DNA from: Leptonemataceae bacterium
GTDB taxonomy: Bacteria; Spirochaetota; Leptospiria; Leptospirales; Leptonemataceae
DNA: 64,000 nucleotides
Assembly (NCBI GenBank): GCA_965227295.1
Contig: OZ245742.1
Location: 864,001-928,000 of the forward strand
Direction: 5' to 3'
Shown here: one piece after another, positions 22,804 through 29,855 of the stretch
Position numbering within the stretch: the first letter of the stretch is position 1
Layout: every line of letters starts with the position of its first letter
Made by a program: the position numbers and the translations under genes
The notes under the pieces: generated by a model
Seen by the model: the letters and a program-made list of their open reading frames with translations, nothing else
What the model was told of the DNA's origin: nothing
Database searches by the model: none

Positions 22804-25017
22804 GTGTTGCGCTACGCTTTGTTCCTGCTTCGATCGATCGTATTCGTGACCGCGGCGTCCTGTCTCGTTTCCTGCGGCCAGGACGTCCTCGCGGAGGTCG
22901 ACAGCCACCACGACAACGTCAGCAATGAGCAGCGCTGGCTGGAACAATACCGTCTCCCGGAAAAACTCGGTGCGCCCCTGGCCGGCTTTCCGAACGTCCG
23001 CCGGGACACCGCCGGCACCCCCCGGGGCGAACTGGCAGCCCGCTTGCGCCAGGCCGGTTTCTTAGCTTACGACGGCCGCAAGTTACTGCTGCACGAAGAA
23101 AGCGACGACGATGATCACGAGTCCTTCGATCCCTCCGAGGGTTCCGGCACTTTCTGGACCGGCCGCTTCCGCCCCATCTTTGCAAGACCAATAAAGCTCC
23201 CGAGCGGCAAAGACGGCGTCGCCGTCTCGCTGCGTTTTCGCGGAGTGTTGATCACGGACGACGGCGGCGAGTCGTACCGGTCCATGCCGGGTCTGCCGGA
23301 GCGCGCCGTATCCGTGGACCCCGGCAACACCGGCTTCGGTCCGAAGCTATATCGCGACGTCCTCGATCTCTGGCAAAACCAGCGGCGGCCGAATCAAATG
23401 GTCGCGCTGAACAAACACCACGTCCTGTTCACGGACGACGGCGGCGTTACGTTTCGTAAGATCAGTCTCGGCGGTGAATTCGATAAGGCCACCCTGAACA
23501 CGCTGACCGGCCGCACAAACGACGACGGCGAGATCAGCGAAATCTTTGTAGGCACCTACATTCGCGGCGTCGCGCGCTGCACGCCTGTGCGAGATTTCAC
23601 GGCCCTGCGCTGTCGCCAGCTCGCGAAAGGCATGCCCTTTCTGAAACACGAGCAGGGTTCGTACTTCATCGAAGAGGTCAGCGGCCTCGCCCTGGATCCT
23701 TCACGCGATCGGCTCTACGCCCTGTCTCGATTTCAGGCGGCGATCAACGTCCTTGACTTGAGCAACCGCGGTGAACGCTTTGAGAGTTTCCCGCTACCCG
23801 GCTTCGGCGGTGCCGATCATGCCGAGAGCCTGTGGTTCGACGCCGCCGGCGAAACGGCCTACATCGCGACAAACCGCGGCATCTACGTTTTTACGGCAGG
23901 CGACGGGAGCTTCCGCCACGTTCCCCATGATCGCATCTTTCCCGGTTACGACGAGGACCGTCCGGCGGAATTCCTGGCCACGACGGCCCGGGGCGAAGGA
24001 CGTCTCCTGCTGTCCCGCTATCTTTCGGAAACTCAGCACCGCACGCCCTCTAACTTACGAGCGTTGTATGTTAGCCCCACGTCCGTGCGCCGCAAACGCC
24101 GCACCGTCTTCGATCTCATCGACAACTACGGCTTCAATGCAGCCGTCATCGACGTCAAAGACGACTTCGGCCGACTGACATACGGCAGCGAACTGAAACT
24201 CGCGAAAGAGATGAACAACGCCCGGCGCCGCGTGGATGTACGCGGGCTGCTCAAACAACTGAAAGAACGCGGCGTGTATACCATTGCGCGGCAGGTGGTC
24301 TTCAAAGATCCGGTGCTCTTTCGTTACAAGAACAACGCCTACGCCATTCGGGACCGGCATCACGGCCGGCCCTGGGTCGGCAACGAGAAGGAACGCTGGG
24401 TGGACACCTACTCCAGCGAAGTCCACGATTACAACGTCAGTGTGGCTCAGGAGCTGGCGGAGATCGGCTTCGACGAAATCCAGTTCGACTACATCCGTTT
24501 TCCTTCGGACGGCCCCATCGGCCGTTGCCGCTGGTCGCACCGCCCGGGAGACGCTTACAAATCCGAGGCTCTGGAGAGTTTTCTCATGAAGGCGCGACGG
24601 GCCGTAACAAAGCCCATCTCCGTCGATATATACGGTTACCACGGCATCTATCGCGCGGGCACGGTGATCGGCCAGGACCTGATCGACGTCGGCGAGTTCG
24701 TGGACGTGGTCTCCCCCATGCATTACTCATCGCACTTCGGCAATCGTTACCTGGATCATTTCCCCAAAGACGTGCGCGCGTACGAACTTCTCAAGCTGGG
24801 CAGCGAACGCCCGCTGCGGATGACCCAGGGTCGCGTGCAGATTCGTCCCTGGGTCCAGGCCTTTCGCATGAAGATTTCCATTTGGGGCTACGGTGAACCG
24901 TACATGCGCAACCAGATTCTTGGCTCCGTGCGCGGCGGCGCCGACGGCTTTCTGTGGTGGGGCCCGATCAAAGAGTTTTATATTCCCGGCCGCGTCCACA
25001 TTGAACTACAAAAGTAA
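22804..25017 (+). CDS. Putative lipoprotein: BNR/Asp-box beta-propeller + putative glycoside hydrolase (DUF4015-like)
   Basis: LVSC lipobox; Asp-boxes ITDDGGESY and FTDDGGVTF; C-terminal VIDVKDD, VFKDP, GFDEIQFDYIRFP and RPWVQAF. Confidence 0.75.
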   Translation: MLRYALFLLRSIVFVTAASCLVSCGQDVLAEVDSHHDNVSNEQRWLEQYRLPEKLGAPLAGFPNVRRDTAGTPRGELAARLRQAGFLAYDGRKLLLHEESDDDDHESFDPSEGSGTFWTGRFRPIFARPIKLPSGKDGVAVSLRFRGVLITDDGGESYRSMPGLPERAVSVDPGNTGFGPKLYRDVLDLWQNQRRPNQMVALNKHHVLFTDDGGVTFRKISLGGEFDKATLNTLTGRTNDDGEISEIFVGTYIRGVARCTPVRDFTALRCRQLAKGMPFLKHEQGSYFIEEVSGLALDPSRDRLYALSRFQAAINVLDLSNRGERFESFPLPGFGGADHAESLWFDAAGETAYIATNRGIYVFTAGDGSFRHVPHDRIFPGYDEDRPAEFLATTARGEGRLLLSRYLSETQHRTPSNLRALYVSPTSVRRKRRTVFDLIDNYGFNAAVIDVKDDFGRLTYGSELKLAKEMNNARRRVDVRGLLKQLKERGVYTIARQVVFKDPVLFRYKNNAYAIRDRHHGRPWVGNEKERWVDTYSSEVHDYNVSVAQELAEIGFDEIQFDYIRFPSDGPIGRCRWSHRPGDAYKSEALESFLMKARRAVTKPISVDIYGYHGIYRAGTVIGQDLIDVGEFVDVVSPMHYSSHFGNRYLDHFPKDVRAYELLKLGSERPLRMTQGRVQIRPWVQAFRMKISIWGYGEPYMRNQILGSVRGGADGFLWWGPIKEFYIPGRVHIELQK

Positions 25018-25072
25018 CTTGCGGATTCCTCCCGCCCGGATCTCCATGGATCTACAAATATTAACACACTGA

Positions 25073-25101
25073 AACATTTTACGAATCATCCGTAAAATGT
25101 T
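25073..25101. promoter_or_regulatory. AT-rich inverted repeat, candidate operator
   Basis: aacattttacg-7 nt-cgtaaaatgtt upstream of the desaturase gene. Confidence 0.5.
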
Positions 25102-25167
25102 CGCGCCTCATCCTTTGGGACTATTGTGATGTAGCGCCATCCAACTACATCTCTCCGGAGTTGAGAG

Positions 25168-26079
25168 ATGTTCAGCAGGCAAACGGTATACTACACCGGC
25201 TACCTCGGCGGAGCCCTGTGGCCGCTCGCGGTGGCTCTTTATGCGTGTTTTTACATGTCCGTGATCGACGACAACGCCGGGCCGGCCGCGGTGCGAGACG
25301 GGATCGAGCCGGCCCTTCTCACGCTGATCTTTCTTCTTTTAACGTTAGCGTGGGAGCGCGCCATGCCTTACCGGCGACGCTGGAATCGCCTGGGACGTCG
25401 TGAGTTCCAGGACTGGTTACACTATTTCACGGCGGTCCTGCCGGCGGAAAGCCTCGGCCGTCATCTGGCCTATGCGGTTGTTCCTGTAATTCTCTGGCAG
25501 GTCCTCCCGGACCACGGCGGAGTCTGGCCGCGCGAATGGCCTGTGGCCGTTCAGGTAGTGCTCGGTATCCTGTTGTTCGACCTGGTTTACTACTGGTATC
25601 ACCGGTTGACGCATACGAAGCTATGGCTGTGGCCGCTGCATCACCTGCATCATACGCCGCGCTATCTCATTGTCACCAGGGGCTTTCGCCACACATTCCC
25701 GGAGTGGGGCCTGGATGTCCTGCTGCACACGTCCGCCTTCCTGCTCGTGGGCATGCCGGATCGGATTGCCCTGTGGGTTACAGCCGTCACGCTGCCCATC
25801 GGCATCCTGTCCCATGCGAACGTACGCTTGCCCGTACCGGCGATTATTCCCCGCATCTTCAATTTGCCGCAGACCCATCGCGTGCATCACGATCGCTCGC
25901 TCCACGGCGGCCTGTCGAATTATTCTGGTTTTTTTATGATCTGGGACCACGTCTTCGGAACGTTCGTGGACCCGGGGCGGTACCGGCCCAAACGTTTGGG
26001 CATCACCGGTTACCGGACGCCGCGCAGTTTCTGGAAGCAGTACTGGTCGTTCGTCTACGGTGTGAACCGCAGCTCTTGA
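25168..26079 (+). CDS. Sterol desaturase / fatty acid hydroxylase family protein
   Basis: His boxes YWYHRLTH, HHLHH, H.N and HRVHH, plus NYS...WDHVFGT; TM segments. Confidence 0.9.
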   Translation: MFSRQTVYYTGYLGGALWPLAVALYACFYMSVIDDNAGPAAVRDGIEPALLTLIFLLLTLAWERAMPYRRRWNRLGRREFQDWLHYFTAVLPAESLGRHLAYAVVPVILWQVLPDHGGVWPREWPVAVQVVLGILLFDLVYYWYHRLTHTKLWLWPLHHLHHTPRYLIVTRGFRHTFPEWGLDVLLHTSAFLLVGMPDRIALWVTAVTLPIGILSHANVRLPVPAIIPRIFNLPQTHRVHHDRSLHGGLSNYSGFFMIWDHVFGTFVDPGRYRPKRLGITGYRTPRSFWKQYWSFVYGVNRSS

Positions 26080-26400
26080 ATTACCGGAAACGTTCGGGTA
26101 AGTCGCGCACGCCCCGAATCGTGGTGTAAGTGACGGCCAGTGTATATTAAGACTTTTATGGGCACGGCTGGTTCCAGGCGACCACGGAGGTTATGCCGGG
26201 GAATGTGGTAAAGCGCACCGGCAGAATTCTCGCTTCAGCGAGATTTCTGAACCGCCGGCTTTCCGCATCGGCGGAAAGCATAAGTCCCCGGCGTCTTCGT
26301 TGCAAGAAACGCTGCGGTAGCCGAGTCGCAAACCGACGTCCGGGTCGAACGCAGCATTCTTAACAAAACGAAAACCCACAACTCCCGCTTCGCCGTAGCC
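26067..26400 (+). ncRNA. Candidate structured RNA, unit 1 (unassigned family)
   Basis: Nested stems with G-U pairs on the + strand; compensatory change relative to unit 2; a 67-nt two-hairpin insertion. Confidence 0.5.
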
Positions 26401-26457
26401 CAAAAAAAGACTGAACGATGCGGCTACACACTTAATCTTTCTCAAGATCCGCCACGA

Positions 26458-26730
26458 ACCGCAGTTCTTGAACTACCGGAAACGCTCAAGTAGTTCGCGC
26501 ACGCCCCGGATCGTGGTGTAAGTGACGGCCAGTGTACATTAAGCCTTTTATGGGCACGGCTGGTTCCAGGCGACCACGGAGGTTATGCCGGGGAATGTGG
26601 TAAAGCGCACCGGAACGGCGTCTTCGTTGCAAGAAACGCTGCGGTAGCTGAGTCGCACAACCAGCGTCCGGGTCGAGCGCTGCATTCTTAACAAAACAAA
26701 AAACCACAACTCCCGCTCAGCTGTAGCAAA
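26458..26730 (+). ncRNA. Candidate structured RNA, unit 2 (unassigned family)
   Basis: Same fold as unit 1 without the insertion. Confidence 0.5.
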
Positions 26731-26835
26731 AAAAGTCCTTTTACGACTACGCAACTTGTTTCATGTTTCTCGCGGCGACGGTTACGAACCGCGGCTCTTG
26801 AATTACCGGAAACATTTTTGTTTGATGGTGTACGT

Positions 26836-27384
26836 TTACACGGCCACGCGTTCCGTAGCGGCCGTGTCGAGTTCCTCGTTGAATCCGAAGAGACGCGGAT
26901 CCTTAAGACGATCGATATAAAGAACACCCTCCAGGTGATCGCATTCGTGCTGATAGACGACGGCATCGAAGCCCTCGATGATTTCGTCGTGGAACTCTTC
27001 GTCTTCGTCGTACCACTTCAGCCGGATGCGGCGCGGACGCTCCACGTAACCGCGCATTCCGGGAACGGACAGGCAGCCTTCCCAGAATCCCTCGCCGGCT
27101 TCTTCAAGTTGTTCGATCTCGGGGTTGATCAGAATCTTGTGCTCGATGCCGTTGCCGTTCAGCTCCGGGTAACGATCGCTGCGGTCGAAGCCGACCACCA
27201 CAACGCGCTTGAGCACGCCGATCTGAGGAGCCGCCAGGCCGAGGCCGTGAGCATCCTCCATGGTATCGAACATGTCACGGATGAGCTTTTTGATCTCTTT
27301 GCTGCGAATCTCCGTCACCGGAACCGGTTCGGATTTCTTGCGGAGCAGCGGATCGCCTGCGCGCAGAATCTTACGGACTGCCAT
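26836..27384 (-). CDS. def: Peptide deformylase
   Basis: [17 protein letters not shown] and QHECDHLEG motifs. Confidence 0.96.
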
Positions 27385-27396
27385 AATATAGATGAT

Positions 27397-28197
27397 CTAA
27401 TCCGACGTCCCATCGCCGACGATCAATTTTTTTATGGATTTGAGCCAGCGCGCGACCGTGTGCAGCGGCCCGGCCGAACGATGGGCGGCCAGGAACTGTT
27501 CCATGGCCGCGTTCACGAGTTCCGGTTCCTCGCCGTGAGGGCTGTGGCCGAGATGTCCGTAGCGAAGCAGGCGACTCCCGCGCAGATTCTCGCTGAGATA
27601 CTCCCCGGACGCCGACGTGCGCCACGGATCTTCGTCTCCGGCGATCAGAAAGATCGGCACCGGCGCATCCGTCGGTTGCGGCGCTCCGGCGTGACGCAGC
27701 GCCCGCAAATAGGCCAGGGCGGCCTGGCCGCGCAGGTTGGCCCGGGCCTCCCGGAGACGGGGTATCCAGGGTTCGCCCCGACCCGCGGGGTCGGCCAGCA
27801 TCGGGAACAACCAGTTCAGGAACGGCAGGGCGGTGGCGAACGCGGCGAGGCGACGAAACCGTTCCAGGCGATAGATCGGGCAGATGAGGATCAAGGCTGA
27901 GACATGCTGCGGATTCAAGGCCGCGTAGCGCAGGGCCAGCAGGGCGCCGACACCGTGAGCGACAATCGGCATGGGCAGTTCATGGCCGGCGAGAAACCTT
28001 CCCAGTTCGGTCAGGTTTAAGTCGACAGCGGGTTGACCGAACGGCAACTCAGGTCCGCCGGGATGCCCGGCCAGCCGATAATAAAGGCAATGATAGTGTC
28101 GCTCAAAGTAGGTAGCCTGGGTGGCCCAGTCTTCTTCCGGATTCGTATACCAATCGTGAACGAAAAGGAGCGGGCGGTCCGGCGGCGACTGGGTCAT
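27397..28197 (-). CDS. Alpha/beta hydrolase fold protein (nucleophile Ser replaced)
   Basis: Family pattern (LIAGDEDP, GHSPH), but the nucleophile elbow reads AHGVG. Confidence 0.75.
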   Translation of the reverse strand: MTQSPPDRPLLFVHDWYTNPEEDWATQATYFERHYHCLYYRLAGHPGGPELPFGQPAVDLNLTELGRFLAGHELPMPIVAHGVGALLALRYAALNPQHVSALILICPIYRLERFRRLAAFATALPFLNWLFPMLADPAGRGEPWIPRLREARANLRGQAALAYLRALRHAGAPQPTDAPVPIFLIAGDEDPWRTSASGEYLSENLRGSRLLRYGHLGHSPHGEEPELVNAAMEQFLAAHRSAGPLHTVARWLKSIKKLIVGDGTSD

Positions 28198-28271
28198 GGG
28201 CCTGGGCTTTCATGTACTCGAAGCGGTACGTGGATGCGATCATCAGGATGGATGACGCAAGTGAGCGACTG

Positions 28272-28344
<73 letters not shown>

Positions 28345-28496: not shown

Positions 28497-29855
28497 TTGG
28501 ATCTTACGGTACTTATCGCGGTCGCCTTCCTGGTGCTGCTCCTCGCGGCGGCCGGGTACTATGTGTACCTGTCCATGGCCGGCCCCCGCAAGATTGAAGA
28601 GATCGAGCGGCTCATCAAACAGAACCGCATTCGCGAAGCCCTCTTCGAACTGGAGAAGGTACTGGAGCGCGACGACCGCAACATGCGGGCGCACTTTCTC
28701 GCGGCACGCTGTCACCTGCGCAACAACGCCGCCGGTAAAGCCATCCTCTCGCTCCGCCAGTGCCTTAAGATTGCGAAGTACTCGCCCGAGGTCAGCGAAG
28801 CCGCCGTGCGCCGCCTCCTCGCCCAGTGTCTGGTGGCCATGGGCAATCATTCCGAGGCCAAGAACGAGTACCTCATCCTCACGCAATTAGAGCCGACCGT
28901 CTACGAGCACTTCTATCACGTCGGTGAGATCTTCTTTCGCGCCGGCGTCCACGTGAAGGCGTTGCAGTTCTTAAAAAAAGCAGTGTCGCTCAACCCGAAG
29001 CATGCGGACTCGCTGGCCCTGGTCGGCCAGTGCGAGTACCATCAAAATGCGTATCAGGAAGCGAAGCAGGCCCTGGCCCAGGCCGTGCAGCTCAAGCCCG
29101 ATCACACGGTAGCGCACTACTTCCTCGGACTCACGTTGCGCTACCTCGGTGACGCCGAGTGGGCGGTCAAAGAATTTGAAAAGGCCGAGAAAGACGACGG
29201 CCTCAAAGAAAAAGCCATCCTCGCCAAGGGCATGGCACTCATCGATCTCGAAGCGTATCCGCGCGCGATTATGGAACTACAGCGCGGGCTGAAGCTAACG
29301 AAAGTCGGCTCCGAAACGATGATCAACATGAACTATCTGCTGGCGCTGGCGGCGGAGCGCACCCGGGATCTGGGCACGGCCATTCAACACTGGGAAATCA
29401 TCGAAAAACTGCGGCCTGGTTACCGCGACGTACGGGATAAGCTCAAGCAGTACTCGGAGTTTCGAACCGACGACGTCATCAAAGACTTCATGATCGCCAA
29501 CCGCGAGCAGTTCGAAGAGACGGGACGTTCCATGCTGGAAGGCCTGGGCTACAGCATCAGCGCGTGCAGCGTACTCAACGACACTTCCATGGAAGCGCTG
29601 GTCTACGACAACGACGGCAACAAACGCAATCTTCGTAAGTTCTACACGCTGATCCATATCCAGCGAGACATGACGCCGCTCAACGAACGCAGCGTGCGCG
29701 ACTTTCACGAAAGCATGCGCGAAAAGAACGCGTCCCGGGGCATCATCATGACTACCGGCGACGTCATGCCCCAGGCCTCCAACTTTGCGTCTTCACGGCC
29801 CATCGATATTTACGACGCCGCCAAAACGGCGGAGGCGCTGAAAGCCGGGAGCTAG
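28497..29855 (+). CDS. Membrane-anchored TPR protein with C-terminal Mrr-like (restriction endonuclease fold) domain
   Basis: N-terminal TM; multiple TPRs; C-terminal FEE...L..LGY...VRDF...ASRGIIMTTG...A...PIDIYD pattern. Confidence 0.8.
   Translation: MDLTVLIAVAFLVLLLAAAGYYVYLSMAGPRKIEEIERLIKQNRIREALFELEKVLERDDRNMRAHFLAARCHLRNNAAGKAILSLRQCLKIAKYSPEVSEAAVRRLLAQCLVAMGNHSEAKNEYLILTQLEPTVYEHFYHVGEIFFRAGVHVKALQFLKKAVSLNPKHADSLALVGQCEYHQNAYQEAKQALAQAVQLKPDHTVAHYFLGLTLRYLGDAEWAVKEFEKAEKDDGLKEKAILAKGMALIDLEAYPRAIMELQRGLKLTKVGSETMINMNYLLALAAERTRDLGTAIQHWEIIEKLRPGYRDVRDKLKQYSEFRTDDVIKDFMIANREQFEETGRSMLEGLGYSISACSVLNDTSMEALVYDNDGNKRNLRKFYTLIHIQRDMTPLNERSVRDFHESMREKNASRGIIMTTGDVMPQASNFASSRPIDIYDAAKTAEALKAGS

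What the first reader, a model, noticed from the sequence alone, without database searches (positions are those of the whole stretch)
26064..26813. Orphan tandem array of a large structured non-coding element bounded by three 28-bp direct repeats
Seen: between the desaturase and def lies R-unit1-R-unit2-R, with R = gaaccgcRgYtcttgaaYtaccggaaac at 26064, 26456 and 26786. A core of about 117 nt differs at only 3 positions, while the last ~50 nt of each unit have diverged strongly. The core folds by eye into one long hairpin with internal loops (ccccg/cgggg, tcgtggt/accacgg, ggccagt/gctggtt, gtgt/gcac). Its G-U pairs work only on the + strand. There is one compensatory change (gaaTtac/gtaAgtc in unit 1, gaaCtac/gtaGttc in unit 2) and one U-G to C-G consistent change. 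No reading frame is conserved. I could not match it to tRNA, tmRNA, SRP, RNase P, cobalamin/TPP/T-box riboswitches or CRISPR. Inference: selection acts on structure, so this is a duplicated, possibly undescribed ncRNA or a tandemly accreting non-autonomous element.
Basis: partly seen in the sequence, partly recalled or inferred. Interest (0 to 1): 0.85.

Follow-up and report, generated by a model that had tools for sequence, protein, structure and literature searches.

The report
Genome-wide modular intergenic repeat family
This is not a lone RNA gene but one of about 116 clusters of a 330-base non-coding repeat that has spread through the gaps behind genes in one bacterial species, an unusually large relative of the known bacterial mosaic repeats.

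Summary
The R-unit1-R-unit2-R layout at 26064-26813 is real. It is not an orphan. A profile built from unit 2 finds 316 copies or pieces (73.5 kb, 1.24% of the 5.94 Mb genome) in 119 groups of hits, about 116 loci. Arrays reach 2.5 kb.

Optional hairpin inserts are I1 (present in window unit 1), I2 and Z.

Arrays are non-coding. They are enriched 2.5-fold between convergent genes and depleted between divergent ones.

The structured-RNA reading fails its tests:
- Folding energy is no better than shuffled sequence (z -0.54 and +0.45).
- The proposed hairpin shows no covariation (91.2% of cells paired against 91.1% in shuffles).
- No Rfam family matches.
- Orientation relative to flanking transcription is random.

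X and Y-T are diverged arms of an old long palindrome. Rare copies still fold as about 120-bp-arm hairpins (z -8.3). A 60-70-nt Y core occurs 4-11 times in the two congeners. X was found only in this genome.

Best reading: a species-specific MITE/BIME/NIME-like mosaic repeat. How it spreads is unresolved.

The parts
25168..26079 (+). Upstream flanking gene (fatty acid hydroxylase / sterol desaturase family, 303 aa). Its last 5 codons and stop lie inside R1.
   Evidence: ORF list. Pfam FA_hydroxylase, E 8.5e-23. Orthologues in both congeners align to residue 296-300 of 303, so the array abuts the native stop.
26064..26091 (+). R1, the linker module (profile positions 1-28).
   Evidence: family D3. 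The R motif has 165 hits in the genome at up to 5 substitutions, none outside arrays.
26107..26221 (+).
   Evidence: The X profile R1 hits only this genome.
26222..26288 (+). I1, an optional 67-nt insert made of two perfect hairpins. Unit 2 lacks it.
   Evidence: strand folding gives -31.5 kcal/mol and z -5.68. There are 23 BLAST hits at 91-100% identity, all inside or beside arrays. It shares the TCTCGC-N4-GCGAGA hairpin with insert I2.
26289..26406 (+). Unit 1, Y module including the Y core (CGTCCGGG...CTCCCGC...GCCGTAGC at 26337-26399).
   Evidence: Pattern match at G000:C1:890337-890399. The Y core is shared with both congeners.
26407..26455 (+). Unit 1 tail, a variant that does not match the family's usual T module.
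   Evidence: No match to the unit 2 tail. The profile hit for unit 1 stops at position 317.
26456..26483 (+). R2, linker.
   Evidence: family D3.
26499..26623 (+). Unit 2, X module (profile positions 44-168).
   Evidence: first row of alignment A1.
26624..26732 (+). Unit 2, Y module.
   Evidence: (D2, D4).
26733..26785 (+). Unit 2, T tail of the family's usual type, a degenerate inverted copy of the 5' part of X.
   Evidence: Consensus. Self reverse-complement alignment.
26786..26832 (+). R3 plus the first bases of a further unit (profile positions 1-46); end of the array.
   Evidence: nhmmer hit covering profile positions 1-46.
26836..27384 (-). Downstream flanking gene def (peptide deformylase), convergent with the hydroxylase gene.
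   Evidence: ORF list. Pfam Pep_deformylase, E 1.2e-53.

Best explanation
The window holds one ordinary locus of a species-specific family of non-coding, modular interspersed repeats. In kind it belongs with bacterial mosaic and MITE-like repeats (NIME, BIME/REP, BOX, ERIC). Its unit is unusually large at about 330 nt.

Shown:
- There are 316 copies or pieces in about 116 intergenic loci.
- Units lie head to tail in arrays of up to 7.5 units.
- The modules are R, X, Y and T. Optional hairpin inserts I1, I2 and Z sit at fixed positions.
- Arrays are strongly enriched between convergent genes, and they abut stop codons.
- X was found only in this genome.
- A 60-70-nt Y core is shared at low copy number with the two congeners.
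- X and Y-T are diverged arms of a long palindrome that a few copies still retain.

Inferred: a small 3'-intergenic element of the genus (the Y core) was duplicated in inverted form into a roughly 280-nt foldback element in this lineage. That element then multiplied. Arrays grow locally by unequal recombination or slippage between units. Units and short blocks are also exchanged between loci by recombination or gene conversion. Copies persist where they do least harm, in the short gaps behind genes.

How new loci are seeded is not shown. I find mobilisation in trans by an unidentified enzyme acting on the hairpin or foldback form more likely than pure recombination. The element most likely acts, if at all, as DNA or as a passive 3'-UTR passenger. 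It is probably not a dedicated structured RNA.
For: Copy number and arrays: 126 BLAST matches; 316 profile hits covering 73,515 nt in 119 groups; 26 loci of 1000 nt or more, the longest 2478 nt.

Independent read sets: k-mer depth inside the repeat is 25-250 times that of the flanks, and contigs break at the R edges.

Non-coding.

Context: 52 of 114 placed arrays lie in convergent gaps, against 18.3% of all gaps; 10 lie in divergent gaps (chi-square p 3e-13). The median gap to a same-sense upstream stop codon is 7.5 nt, and 53 of 80 lie within 20 nt.

Modules: I1 has 23 hits, all in or beside arrays. Z has 51 of 51 hits in or beside arrays. By my comparison of the places with the array list, 28 of the 30 TCTCGC-N4-GCGAGA hairpin sites lie in arrays.

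Local growth: identity is 84% within arrays and 77% between them, and 70 of 185 units have their nearest relative in the same array.

Palindromic origin: the consensus aligns to its own reverse complement over positions 62-304. The copies at G000:C1:776294 and 1378564 fold as giant hairpins (z -8.3 and -5.0) equally on both strands. By my reading of the hit list, about 4-5 such copies exist.

Lineage: the Y-core pattern at up to 1 mismatch gives 121 matches in G000, 7 in G002, 4 in G001 and none in the other 153 genomes of the order. The X profile hits 0 of the 41 other genomes of the family. BLAST against 40 relatives gives one weak Y hit. In the congeners the Y core is intergenic in 18 of 18 copies, 9 of them between convergent genes.

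Literature: a MITE census reports Leptospirales as especially MITE-rich, with a median of 154 per genome (PMC11602168, passages read).
Against: - No transposase partner was found. There is no RAYT and no TnpB. Only one IS110 is present, and by coordinates it lies about 8.6 kb from the nearest array.
- The terminal motifs of X, T and R have only 3, 1 and 0 hits outside arrays, and none frames an ORF.
- No target-site duplication could be read, and no empty site is available. The congeners are only about 52% identical in the flanking protein.
- Mainstream units have lost the palindrome (z about 0). A MITE-type mechanism would therefore have to have worked in the past or on a few master copies.
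- Some blocks are nearly invariant across about 200 copies, for example GCTGG-TT-CCAGC. This could mean that each copy is under selection for a host function, which a purely selfish reading does not predict.
- Arrays lean slightly towards the leading strand (72 against 47). This is unexplained.
- No RNA data exist, so expression is unknown.
Confidence: 0.72

Rival explanations
1. A multi-copy, undescribed structured non-coding RNA. Each unit would be transcribed from the + strand and fold into a long hairpin kept by selection.
For: - The drawn hairpin is 91.2% canonical in 55 distinct cores, against 31-47% when the partner columns are slid.
- Several pairs are G-U on the + strand only.
- The + strand of X has the lower MFE in 183 of 185 copies.
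- One local compensatory change is present in the window.
Against: - Shuffled controls reach the same pairing and covariation (185 and 187 of 500 shuffles). Only 3 pairs have double changes, against 4.3 expected.
- RNAalifold prefers another structure: -15.2 kcal/mol, covariation term -0.22, 0 compensatory pairs.
- z-scores are about 0 on both strands, so the + advantage is compositional.
- Mutual information is dominated by neighbouring columns that mark subfamily blocks. The best long-range pair, 218:251, is a subfamily marker.
- No sigma-70-like promoter was found.
- In co-directional gaps the element is sense 24 times and antisense 30 times.
- The most invariant block, GCTGG-TT-CCAGC, is an inverted repeat with a 2-nt spacer, which suits duplex DNA better than an RNA hairpin (inference).
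- No Rfam match.
Confidence: 0.08
2. Domesticated DNA-level or 3'-end elements. The arrays would serve the host as protein-binding sites (nucleoid, topoisomerase or recombination sites, as proposed for BIME and NIME). Alternatively they would act as 3'-UTR or termination buffers between convergent genes, with the Z, I1 and I2 hairpins as the working parts. This is compatible with a selfish origin.
For: - Arrays are enriched 2.5-fold in convergent gaps and abut stop codons.
- Nearly invariant blocks with dyad symmetry persist across about 200 copies.
- The long GC-rich Z hairpin closes 19 of 119 arrays.
- I1 folds with z -5.7.
- The Y core sits behind genes in the congeners too.
- REPs are reported as context-dependent 3'-UTR regulators in E. 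coli (bioRxiv 10.64898/2026.03.23.713779; start of abstract seen in the search listing).
Against: - No T-run follows Z or the X hairpin. The terminator-like scan gives 3 sites against 1.8 expected.
- The family is found in one species only. Any role would therefore be recent and dispensable for relatives.
- Array length varies from a fragment to 7.5 units with no visible rule.
- The same context bias is expected from counter-selection of insertions in promoter regions.
Confidence: 0.2
3. A neutral local duplication or an assembly artefact at this one locus.
For: Units 1 and 2 are closer to each other (94% over 158 nt) than to most other copies, so the last step here was a local duplication. 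Short-read contigs do not bridge the array.
Against: The same unit occurs at about 116 loci in a one-contig genome. Two read sets from one study show 25-250-fold depth over it. The two units differ by a 67-nt module and by their tails, which a collapse or expansion error would not produce.
Confidence: 0.02

Closest known systems
Neisserial intergenic mosaic elements (NIME: dRS3 repeats flanking RS elements)
   Same: Both are non-coding arrays in which a short conserved repeat alternates with longer repeat blocks. Both are dispersed at many intergenic loci, vary in length, accept nested insertions of other small repeats, and are thought to be shaped by recombination (PMC1797815, passages read).
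   Different: dRS3 is a 20-bp inverted repeat, and the RS blocks of 19-214 bp fall into more than 100 families. Here one 330-nt unit is repeated head to tail. R (28 nt) is not visibly palindromic to my eye. No phage or IS110-type recombinase could be linked to the arrays.
REP / BIME of enterobacteria and pseudomonads, with RAYT transposases
   Same: Both are extragenic, favour gene 3' ends, are built from hairpin modules combined in mosaics, number in the hundreds, and are species-specific (abstracts of PMC3333891 and PMC2817692 seen in the search listing).
   Different: REPs are 20-40 nt and alternate in orientation within BIMEs. Here the units are about ten times longer and all in one orientation. 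No Y1 transposase was found in the genome.
MITEs and imperfect-palindrome repeats (ERIC/RU-1, Correia, RUP), and the pneumococcal BOX element
   Same: All are non-coding, under 600 bp, and have dyad symmetry over the whole element. Variants carry internal insertions at fixed sites, composition is modular (BOX A-Bn-C), and location is intergenic. Leptospirales are reported as MITE-rich (PMC11602168, passages; PMC3049150 and PMC2759123, starts of abstracts only). ERIC's internal-insertion variants and the BOX module formula are recalled, not read here.
   Different: Mainstream copies have lost most of the inverted symmetry. Units stand in long tandem arrays. No autonomous parent element and no target duplication were found.
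Mycobacterial interspersed repetitive units (MIRU), dispersed minisatellite-like tandem repeats (recalled, no paper read)
   Same: Both are tandem repeats of one unit family scattered over tens of intergenic loci, with a variable number of copies.
   Different: MIRU units are about 40-100 bp, lie within operons and are oriented with transcription. Here units are 330 nt, lie mostly between convergent genes, and show no orientation rule.

Membership tests
Any Rfam RNA family (6S, tmRNA, RNase P, SRP, riboswitches, self-cleaving ribozymes, group II intron domains) | Covariance-model score at or above the family's gathering threshold | tested here: not met
   Window 25000-28000 at E up to 10 gives only istR at 16.3 bits (threshold 45) and snaR-A at 15.9 bits (threshold 98), the latter outside the array. 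Three other loci, covering the longest array, an array with Z and I2, and a palindromic copy, give one chance miRNA hit at E 0.44.
Structured ncRNA (generic) | Base pairs supported by covariation above a null model | tested here: not met
   The count of structure pairs on 55 distinct cores gives a covariation score of 0.115 against 0.113 in shuffles (187 of 500 reach it) and 3 pairs with double changes against 4.3. RNAalifold finds 0 compensatory pairs.
Structured ncRNA (generic) | Folding energy below that of composition-matched shuffles | tested here: not met
   z is -0.54 and +0.45 on the + strand and +0.70 and +0.93 on the - strand for the two window cores. The family mean is +0.65 on both strands.
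CRISPR array | Short identical repeats separated by unique spacers of similar short length | tested here: not met
   The stretches between R copies are 300-365 nt long and homologous to each other. The same 'spacers' recur at about 116 loci.
REP/BIME | 20-40-nt GC-rich palindromic units in alternating orientation | tested here: not met
   The unit is 330 nt, and all units of an array lie in one orientation. Small hairpin modules (I1, I2, Z) do exist inside it.
REP/BIME | A REP-associated tyrosine (Y1) transposase in the genome | tested here: not met
   PF01797 has 0 matches in the genome. The control search rings in 6 of 14 genomes.
REP/BIME, NIME, MITE (shared) | Extragenic location, favouring gene 3' ends | tested here: met
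   52 of 114 placed arrays lie in convergent gaps, 10 in divergent gaps, p 3e-13. Gene calls come from my own codon-usage caller.
MITE | Terminal inverted repeats | tested here: inconclusive
   The consensus aligns to its own reverse complement over positions 62-304 with a weak score of 64. The symmetry is strong in two rare copies: scores 164 and 126, hairpin z -8.3 and -5.0. Mainstream units have z about 0.
MITE | Target-site duplication and an autonomous element with the same ends | tested here: not met
   End motifs occur outside arrays only 3 (X), 1 (T) and 0 (R) times, and none is paired around an ORF. No duplication could be read from the flanks. No empty site is available.
NIME | Arrays of a 20-bp inverted repeat flanking many unrelated RS families | tested here: not met
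   One unit family is repeated here. The definition is taken from PMC1797815.
Satellite or retrozyme-type tandem repeats with self-cleaving ribozymes | A hammerhead, twister, HDV-like or other ribozyme in each unit | tested here: not met
   No such Rfam hit at E up to 10 or up to 1.

The most novel reading that the evidence does not exclude
The family may be a new kind of non-autonomous element. It would multiply through a foldback or hairpin (or small circular) intermediate, using an enzyme that none of the usual transposase families explains. Its nearly invariant dyad blocks, such as GCTGG-TT-CCAGC, would be the recognition sites. Alternatively the host may have recruited these arrays as protein-binding buffers between convergent genes. 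Either way, one species would record the birth of a 1.2%-of-genome repeat from a 60-70-nt genus-wide 3'-intergenic element.
Probability: 0.15. Interest if true: 0.7.

Novelty: new variant of a known kind. Interest (0 to 1): 0.42.

Why it matters
What looked like a unique structured RNA is a member of a large repeat family. Genome scans should check copy number before inferring selection on structure from two tandem paralogues.

The family itself is a clean case of a recent repeat explosion in a bacterium. It has about 316 copies and makes up 1.2% of the genome. A low-copy precursor is still visible in the congeners, and so are the palindromic intermediates. Because the family is modular and found in only one of the genomes searched, it could serve three purposes:
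- strain typing by array length;
- studying how bacterial mosaic repeats arise without a recognisable transposase;
- testing what such arrays do between convergent genes.

Tried and rejected
- Tandem Repeats Finder lists nothing at this locus, only 2 unrelated rows in the window. The two units differ by a 67-nt indel.
- RNAalifold on 106 full-length units gave untidy, equally weak structures on both strands (-88.2 and -93.3).
- A pairing-fraction scan over all column pairs was useless, because any two conserved complementary 4-mers pass (which failed with a script error, and 21).
- The share of singleton variants (0.2% of cells) is uninformative with 316 copies, because recurrent changes look shared.
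- RNA evidence: no RNA holder is listed for this stretch, so expression could not be addressed.
- Short-read contigs of two runs do not bridge the array, so they neither confirm nor refute two units at this locus.
- An X pattern (22 fixed bases) was scanned over genome contigs and metagenome contigs. Each gave one hit, the same unrelated sequence, scoring 1.4 bits against the profile, so it is chance. Records of the window's own genome may be left out of those scans.
- BLAST of one unit against plasmids and phages found no match.
- Earlier notes of this scan held nothing on this genome or sequence.
- A 54-nt X fragment at G000:C1:777845 was checked as a possible end of an autonomous element. 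It lies upstream of an ORF whose first residues I read as a dinucleotide-binding motif (by eye, not tested against Pfam), and I saw nothing transposase-like there.
- Ten reverse-transcriptase ORFs exist. By coordinates none lies within about 6 kb of an array, so I did not pursue a retro-element link.
- Consensus folding of the Y core in the congeners gave equal, weak energies on both strands (-21.1 and -21.4).
- Print search: four full-text searches turned up no description of a 330-nt tandem mosaic repeat in Leptospirales. Supplementary tables of the MITE census (PMC11602168) could not be seen and might list it.
Full report
1. The observation.

The sequence at 26064-26813 is as described. A 28-31-nt repeat R stands at 26064, 26456 and 26786 (100/90/94% identity; spacing 392 and 330). 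The first 158 nt of the two units are 94% identical. Two further blocks of 42 and 76 nt match at 98% and 86%. The last ~50 nt of the units do not match.

Unit 1 is longer because of a 67-nt insert at 26222-26288.

The array fills the gap between a fatty-acid-hydroxylase-family gene (25168-26079, +) and def (26836-27384, -), which converge on it. The first gene's last five codons and stop lie in R1. Its orthologues in two congeners align to within 3-7 residues of that end.

No tRNA or tmRNA lies in the array.

2. Not an orphan.

The genome is one contig of 5.94 Mb with 59.8% G+C; the window is 864001-928000. It holds 126 BLAST matches to the 750-nt stretch.

A profile built from unit 2 and iterated once finds 316 hits covering 73,515 nt, which is 1.24% of the genome. 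The hits fall into 119 groups. That is 116 loci once hits on both strands of the same place are merged. 58 groups are 600 nt or longer and 26 are 1000 nt or longer. The longest is 2478 nt, about 7.5 units.

Two public read sets from one study show k-mer depth inside the repeat at 25-250 times that of the flanks. Their contigs break at the R edges. The repeat is therefore truly multi-copy, although those contigs cannot confirm the unit number at this locus.

3. Anatomy.

The 330-nt unit is conserved along its whole length. Nearly invariant blocks alternate with short hypervariable blocks. I distinguish these modules:
- R, profile positions 1-28.
- A short variable linker.
- Y, about 169-277, containing a core CGTCCGGG...CTCCCGC...GCCGTAGC.
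- T, about 278-327.

Three optional modules sit at fixed places:
- I1 is 67 nt after position ~160 and forms two perfect hairpins (z -5.7). It has 23 hits, all in or beside arrays, at 91-100% identity.
- I2 is about 60 nt at position 255.
- Z is about 87 nt, a long GC-rich hairpin. All 51 of its hits lie in or beside arrays.

I1 and I2 share a TCTCGC-N4-GCGAGA hairpin in opposite orientations. There are 30 such sites in the genome, and 28 of them lie in arrays by my comparison with the array list.

R is not a special boundary. Arrays start with X (50), Y (31), R (22) or elsewhere (16). They end after X (29), after X plus Z (19), with R (14) or elsewhere (57). Only 2 of 119 are R-to-R like the window's.

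All frames carry stops.

4. Context.

I called genes with a codon-usage caller of my own (4773 genes, 88% coding). By those calls, 52 of 114 placed arrays lie between convergent genes, although such gaps are only 18.3% of all gaps. 10 lie between divergent genes (also 18.3% of gaps) and 52 between co-directional genes (63.3% of gaps). The chi-square p is 3e-13.

Where the upstream gene has the element's orientation (80 arrays), the median distance from its stop codon is 7.5 nt, and 53 lie within 20 nt. Gaps without arrays are short anyway, with a median of 30-34 nt. This closeness therefore needs no special targeting.

In the only informative class, co-directional gaps, the element is sense 24 times and antisense 30 times. 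There is no rule of orientation relative to transcription.

Arrays are spread evenly round the chromosome. They lean slightly towards the leading strand, 72 against 47, compared with 2557 against 2216 for genes.

5. Is it a structured RNA?

Rfam gives nothing.

The two window cores fold with z -0.54 and +0.45 on the + strand and +0.70 and +0.93 on the - strand. Over the family, X has mean z +0.65 on both strands (40 copies shuffled). The + strand has the lower MFE in 183 of 185 copies, but that follows from its composition, because the shuffles show the same shift.

185 copies span X at near-full length, and I used only those that lay in stored loci. 91.2% of cells pair, against 91.1% in shuffles (185 of 500 at least as high). 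The covariation score is 0.115 against 0.113 (187 of 500). 3 pairs have double changes against 4.3 expected. The slid controls are much lower (31-47%), as expected for a structure read off these very sequences.

RNAalifold picks a different, weak structure with no compensatory pair.

Counts over all copies show that changes at paired columns are independent. For example, 61:119 reads GC 101, GT 45, AC 42, AT 14, and 77:105 reads GC 186, AC 29.

Mutual information is dominated by neighbouring columns, that is, by block variants inherited together.

The window's 'compensatory' pair reads CG 114, TG 25, CA 20, TA 8 across the family.

No promoter-like site is present, and terminator-like sites are at chance level.

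The structured-RNA inference rested on two recently duplicated paralogues. It does not survive the family.

6. Origin.

The consensus aligns with its own reverse complement over positions 62-304. X matches the inverse of Y-T: for example, TATGGGTACGGCTGG in X faces CAGCCGTAGCCAAAA in Y.

A few copies keep the symmetry. Those at G000:C1:776294 and 1378564 fold into hairpins with about 120-bp arms, z -8.3 and -5.0, equally on both strands. Window unit 2 has z +0.5. By my reading of the hit list, about 4-5 such copies exist.

The unit is thus a decayed long palindrome, a foldback-type element, with R as the linker between successive copies.

7. Distribution.

BLAST against 40 relatives gave one weak hit, to Y, in a congener.

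The Y-core pattern at up to 1 mismatch occurs 121 times in G000, 7 times in G002, 4 times in G001 and in none of the other 153 genomes of the order. At up to 2 mismatches the counts are 11 in G002 and 9 in G001, with 0 and 2 control hits.

There it is a solitary element of about 60-80 nt. It is intergenic in 18 of 18 copies examined, and 9 of those lie between convergent genes.

A sequence profile of X hits only G000: 80 scored matches, all below E 1e-32, and 0 of the 41 other genomes of the family.

Scans of 185,579 species genomes and of JGI metagenomes with a 22-base X pattern gave one chance hit each. Plasmid and phage collections gave none.

The congeners are distant, at about 52% identity for the flanking enzyme. 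'Species-specific' therefore means 'not found in those searched'.

8. Spread.

Units within an array are more alike (mean 84%) than units of different arrays (77%). 70 of 185 units have their nearest relative in the same array. Arrays therefore grow locally.

The other 115 units have their nearest relative elsewhere. Block variants are also shuffled among copies. Sequence therefore moves between loci as well.

I found no enzyme for this:
- no Y1 transposase and no TnpB;
- one IS110, which by coordinates lies about 8.6 kb from the nearest array;
- ten reverse-transcriptase ORFs, none within about 6 kb of an array by coordinates;
- no X, T or R end motifs framing an ORF outside arrays.

The seeding mechanism is therefore inferred, not shown.

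9. Comparison and verdict.

In kind this belongs with bacterial interspersed mosaic and MITE-like repeats. NIME arrays are the closest in architecture (PMC1797815, passages). REP/BIME, BOX and ERIC share its hairpin modules and 3'-intergenic habit (abstracts only; some traits recalled).

It fails the defining tests of each. The unit is ten times the size of a REP, and all units lie in one orientation. There is no RAYT. It is one unit family rather than many RS families. It has no clear terminal repeats, target duplication or parent element.

Leptospirales are reported as MITE-rich (PMC11602168, passages).

I file it as a new variant of a known kind. It is ordinary as a class and unusual in unit size, tandem habit and traceable origin. 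The window locus is a typical small member.

Noticed in passing
window 28271-28344 (-): tRNA-Ala (anticodon GGC), the only tRNA in the 64-kb window. It lies about 1.4 kb from the array and is unrelated to it.
   Followed up: no
window 28497-29855 (+): A 452-aa protein that combines TPR repeats with a C-terminal Mrr_cat restriction-endonuclease domain (Pfam E 5.4e-12). This is an unusual fusion and a possible defence gene.
   Followed up: no
G000:C1, ten places (e.g. 40883, 765390, 32821, 3743265, 4553832, 5028782): Ten intact RVT_1 reverse-transcriptase ORFs, in sets with identical scores: 2 of 624 aa, 2 of 472 aa and 4 of 456 aa, plus single ORFs of 561 and 341 aa. This suggests several recently active group II intron-like retroelements.
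   Followed up: partly
window 26826-26855: By eye, a 7-bp stem (CACGGCC...GGCCGTG) spans the stop codon of def, just past the end of the array. It may be def's own 3' hairpin.
   Followed up: no
G000:C1:1915905 and 3020880: By my comparison with the array list, two copies of the TCTCGC-N4-GCGAGA hairpin lie outside any array. The small hairpin module may therefore also exist on its own.
   Followed up: no
G000:C1:777845-777898 (L078:2346-2399): An isolated 54-nt fragment of the 5' part of X sits about 1.25 kb from a palindromic copy. It lies in the leader region of an ORF whose first residues I read as a dinucleotide-binding motif (by eye).
   Followed up: yes
window 26087-26482 and 26123-26518 (joints in read contigs): Contigs in runs X1 and X2 join unit 1 to unit 2 in register, skipping 394 nt. 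They may come from other loci or from cells with a one-unit array. Short contigs cannot tell which.
   Followed up: no
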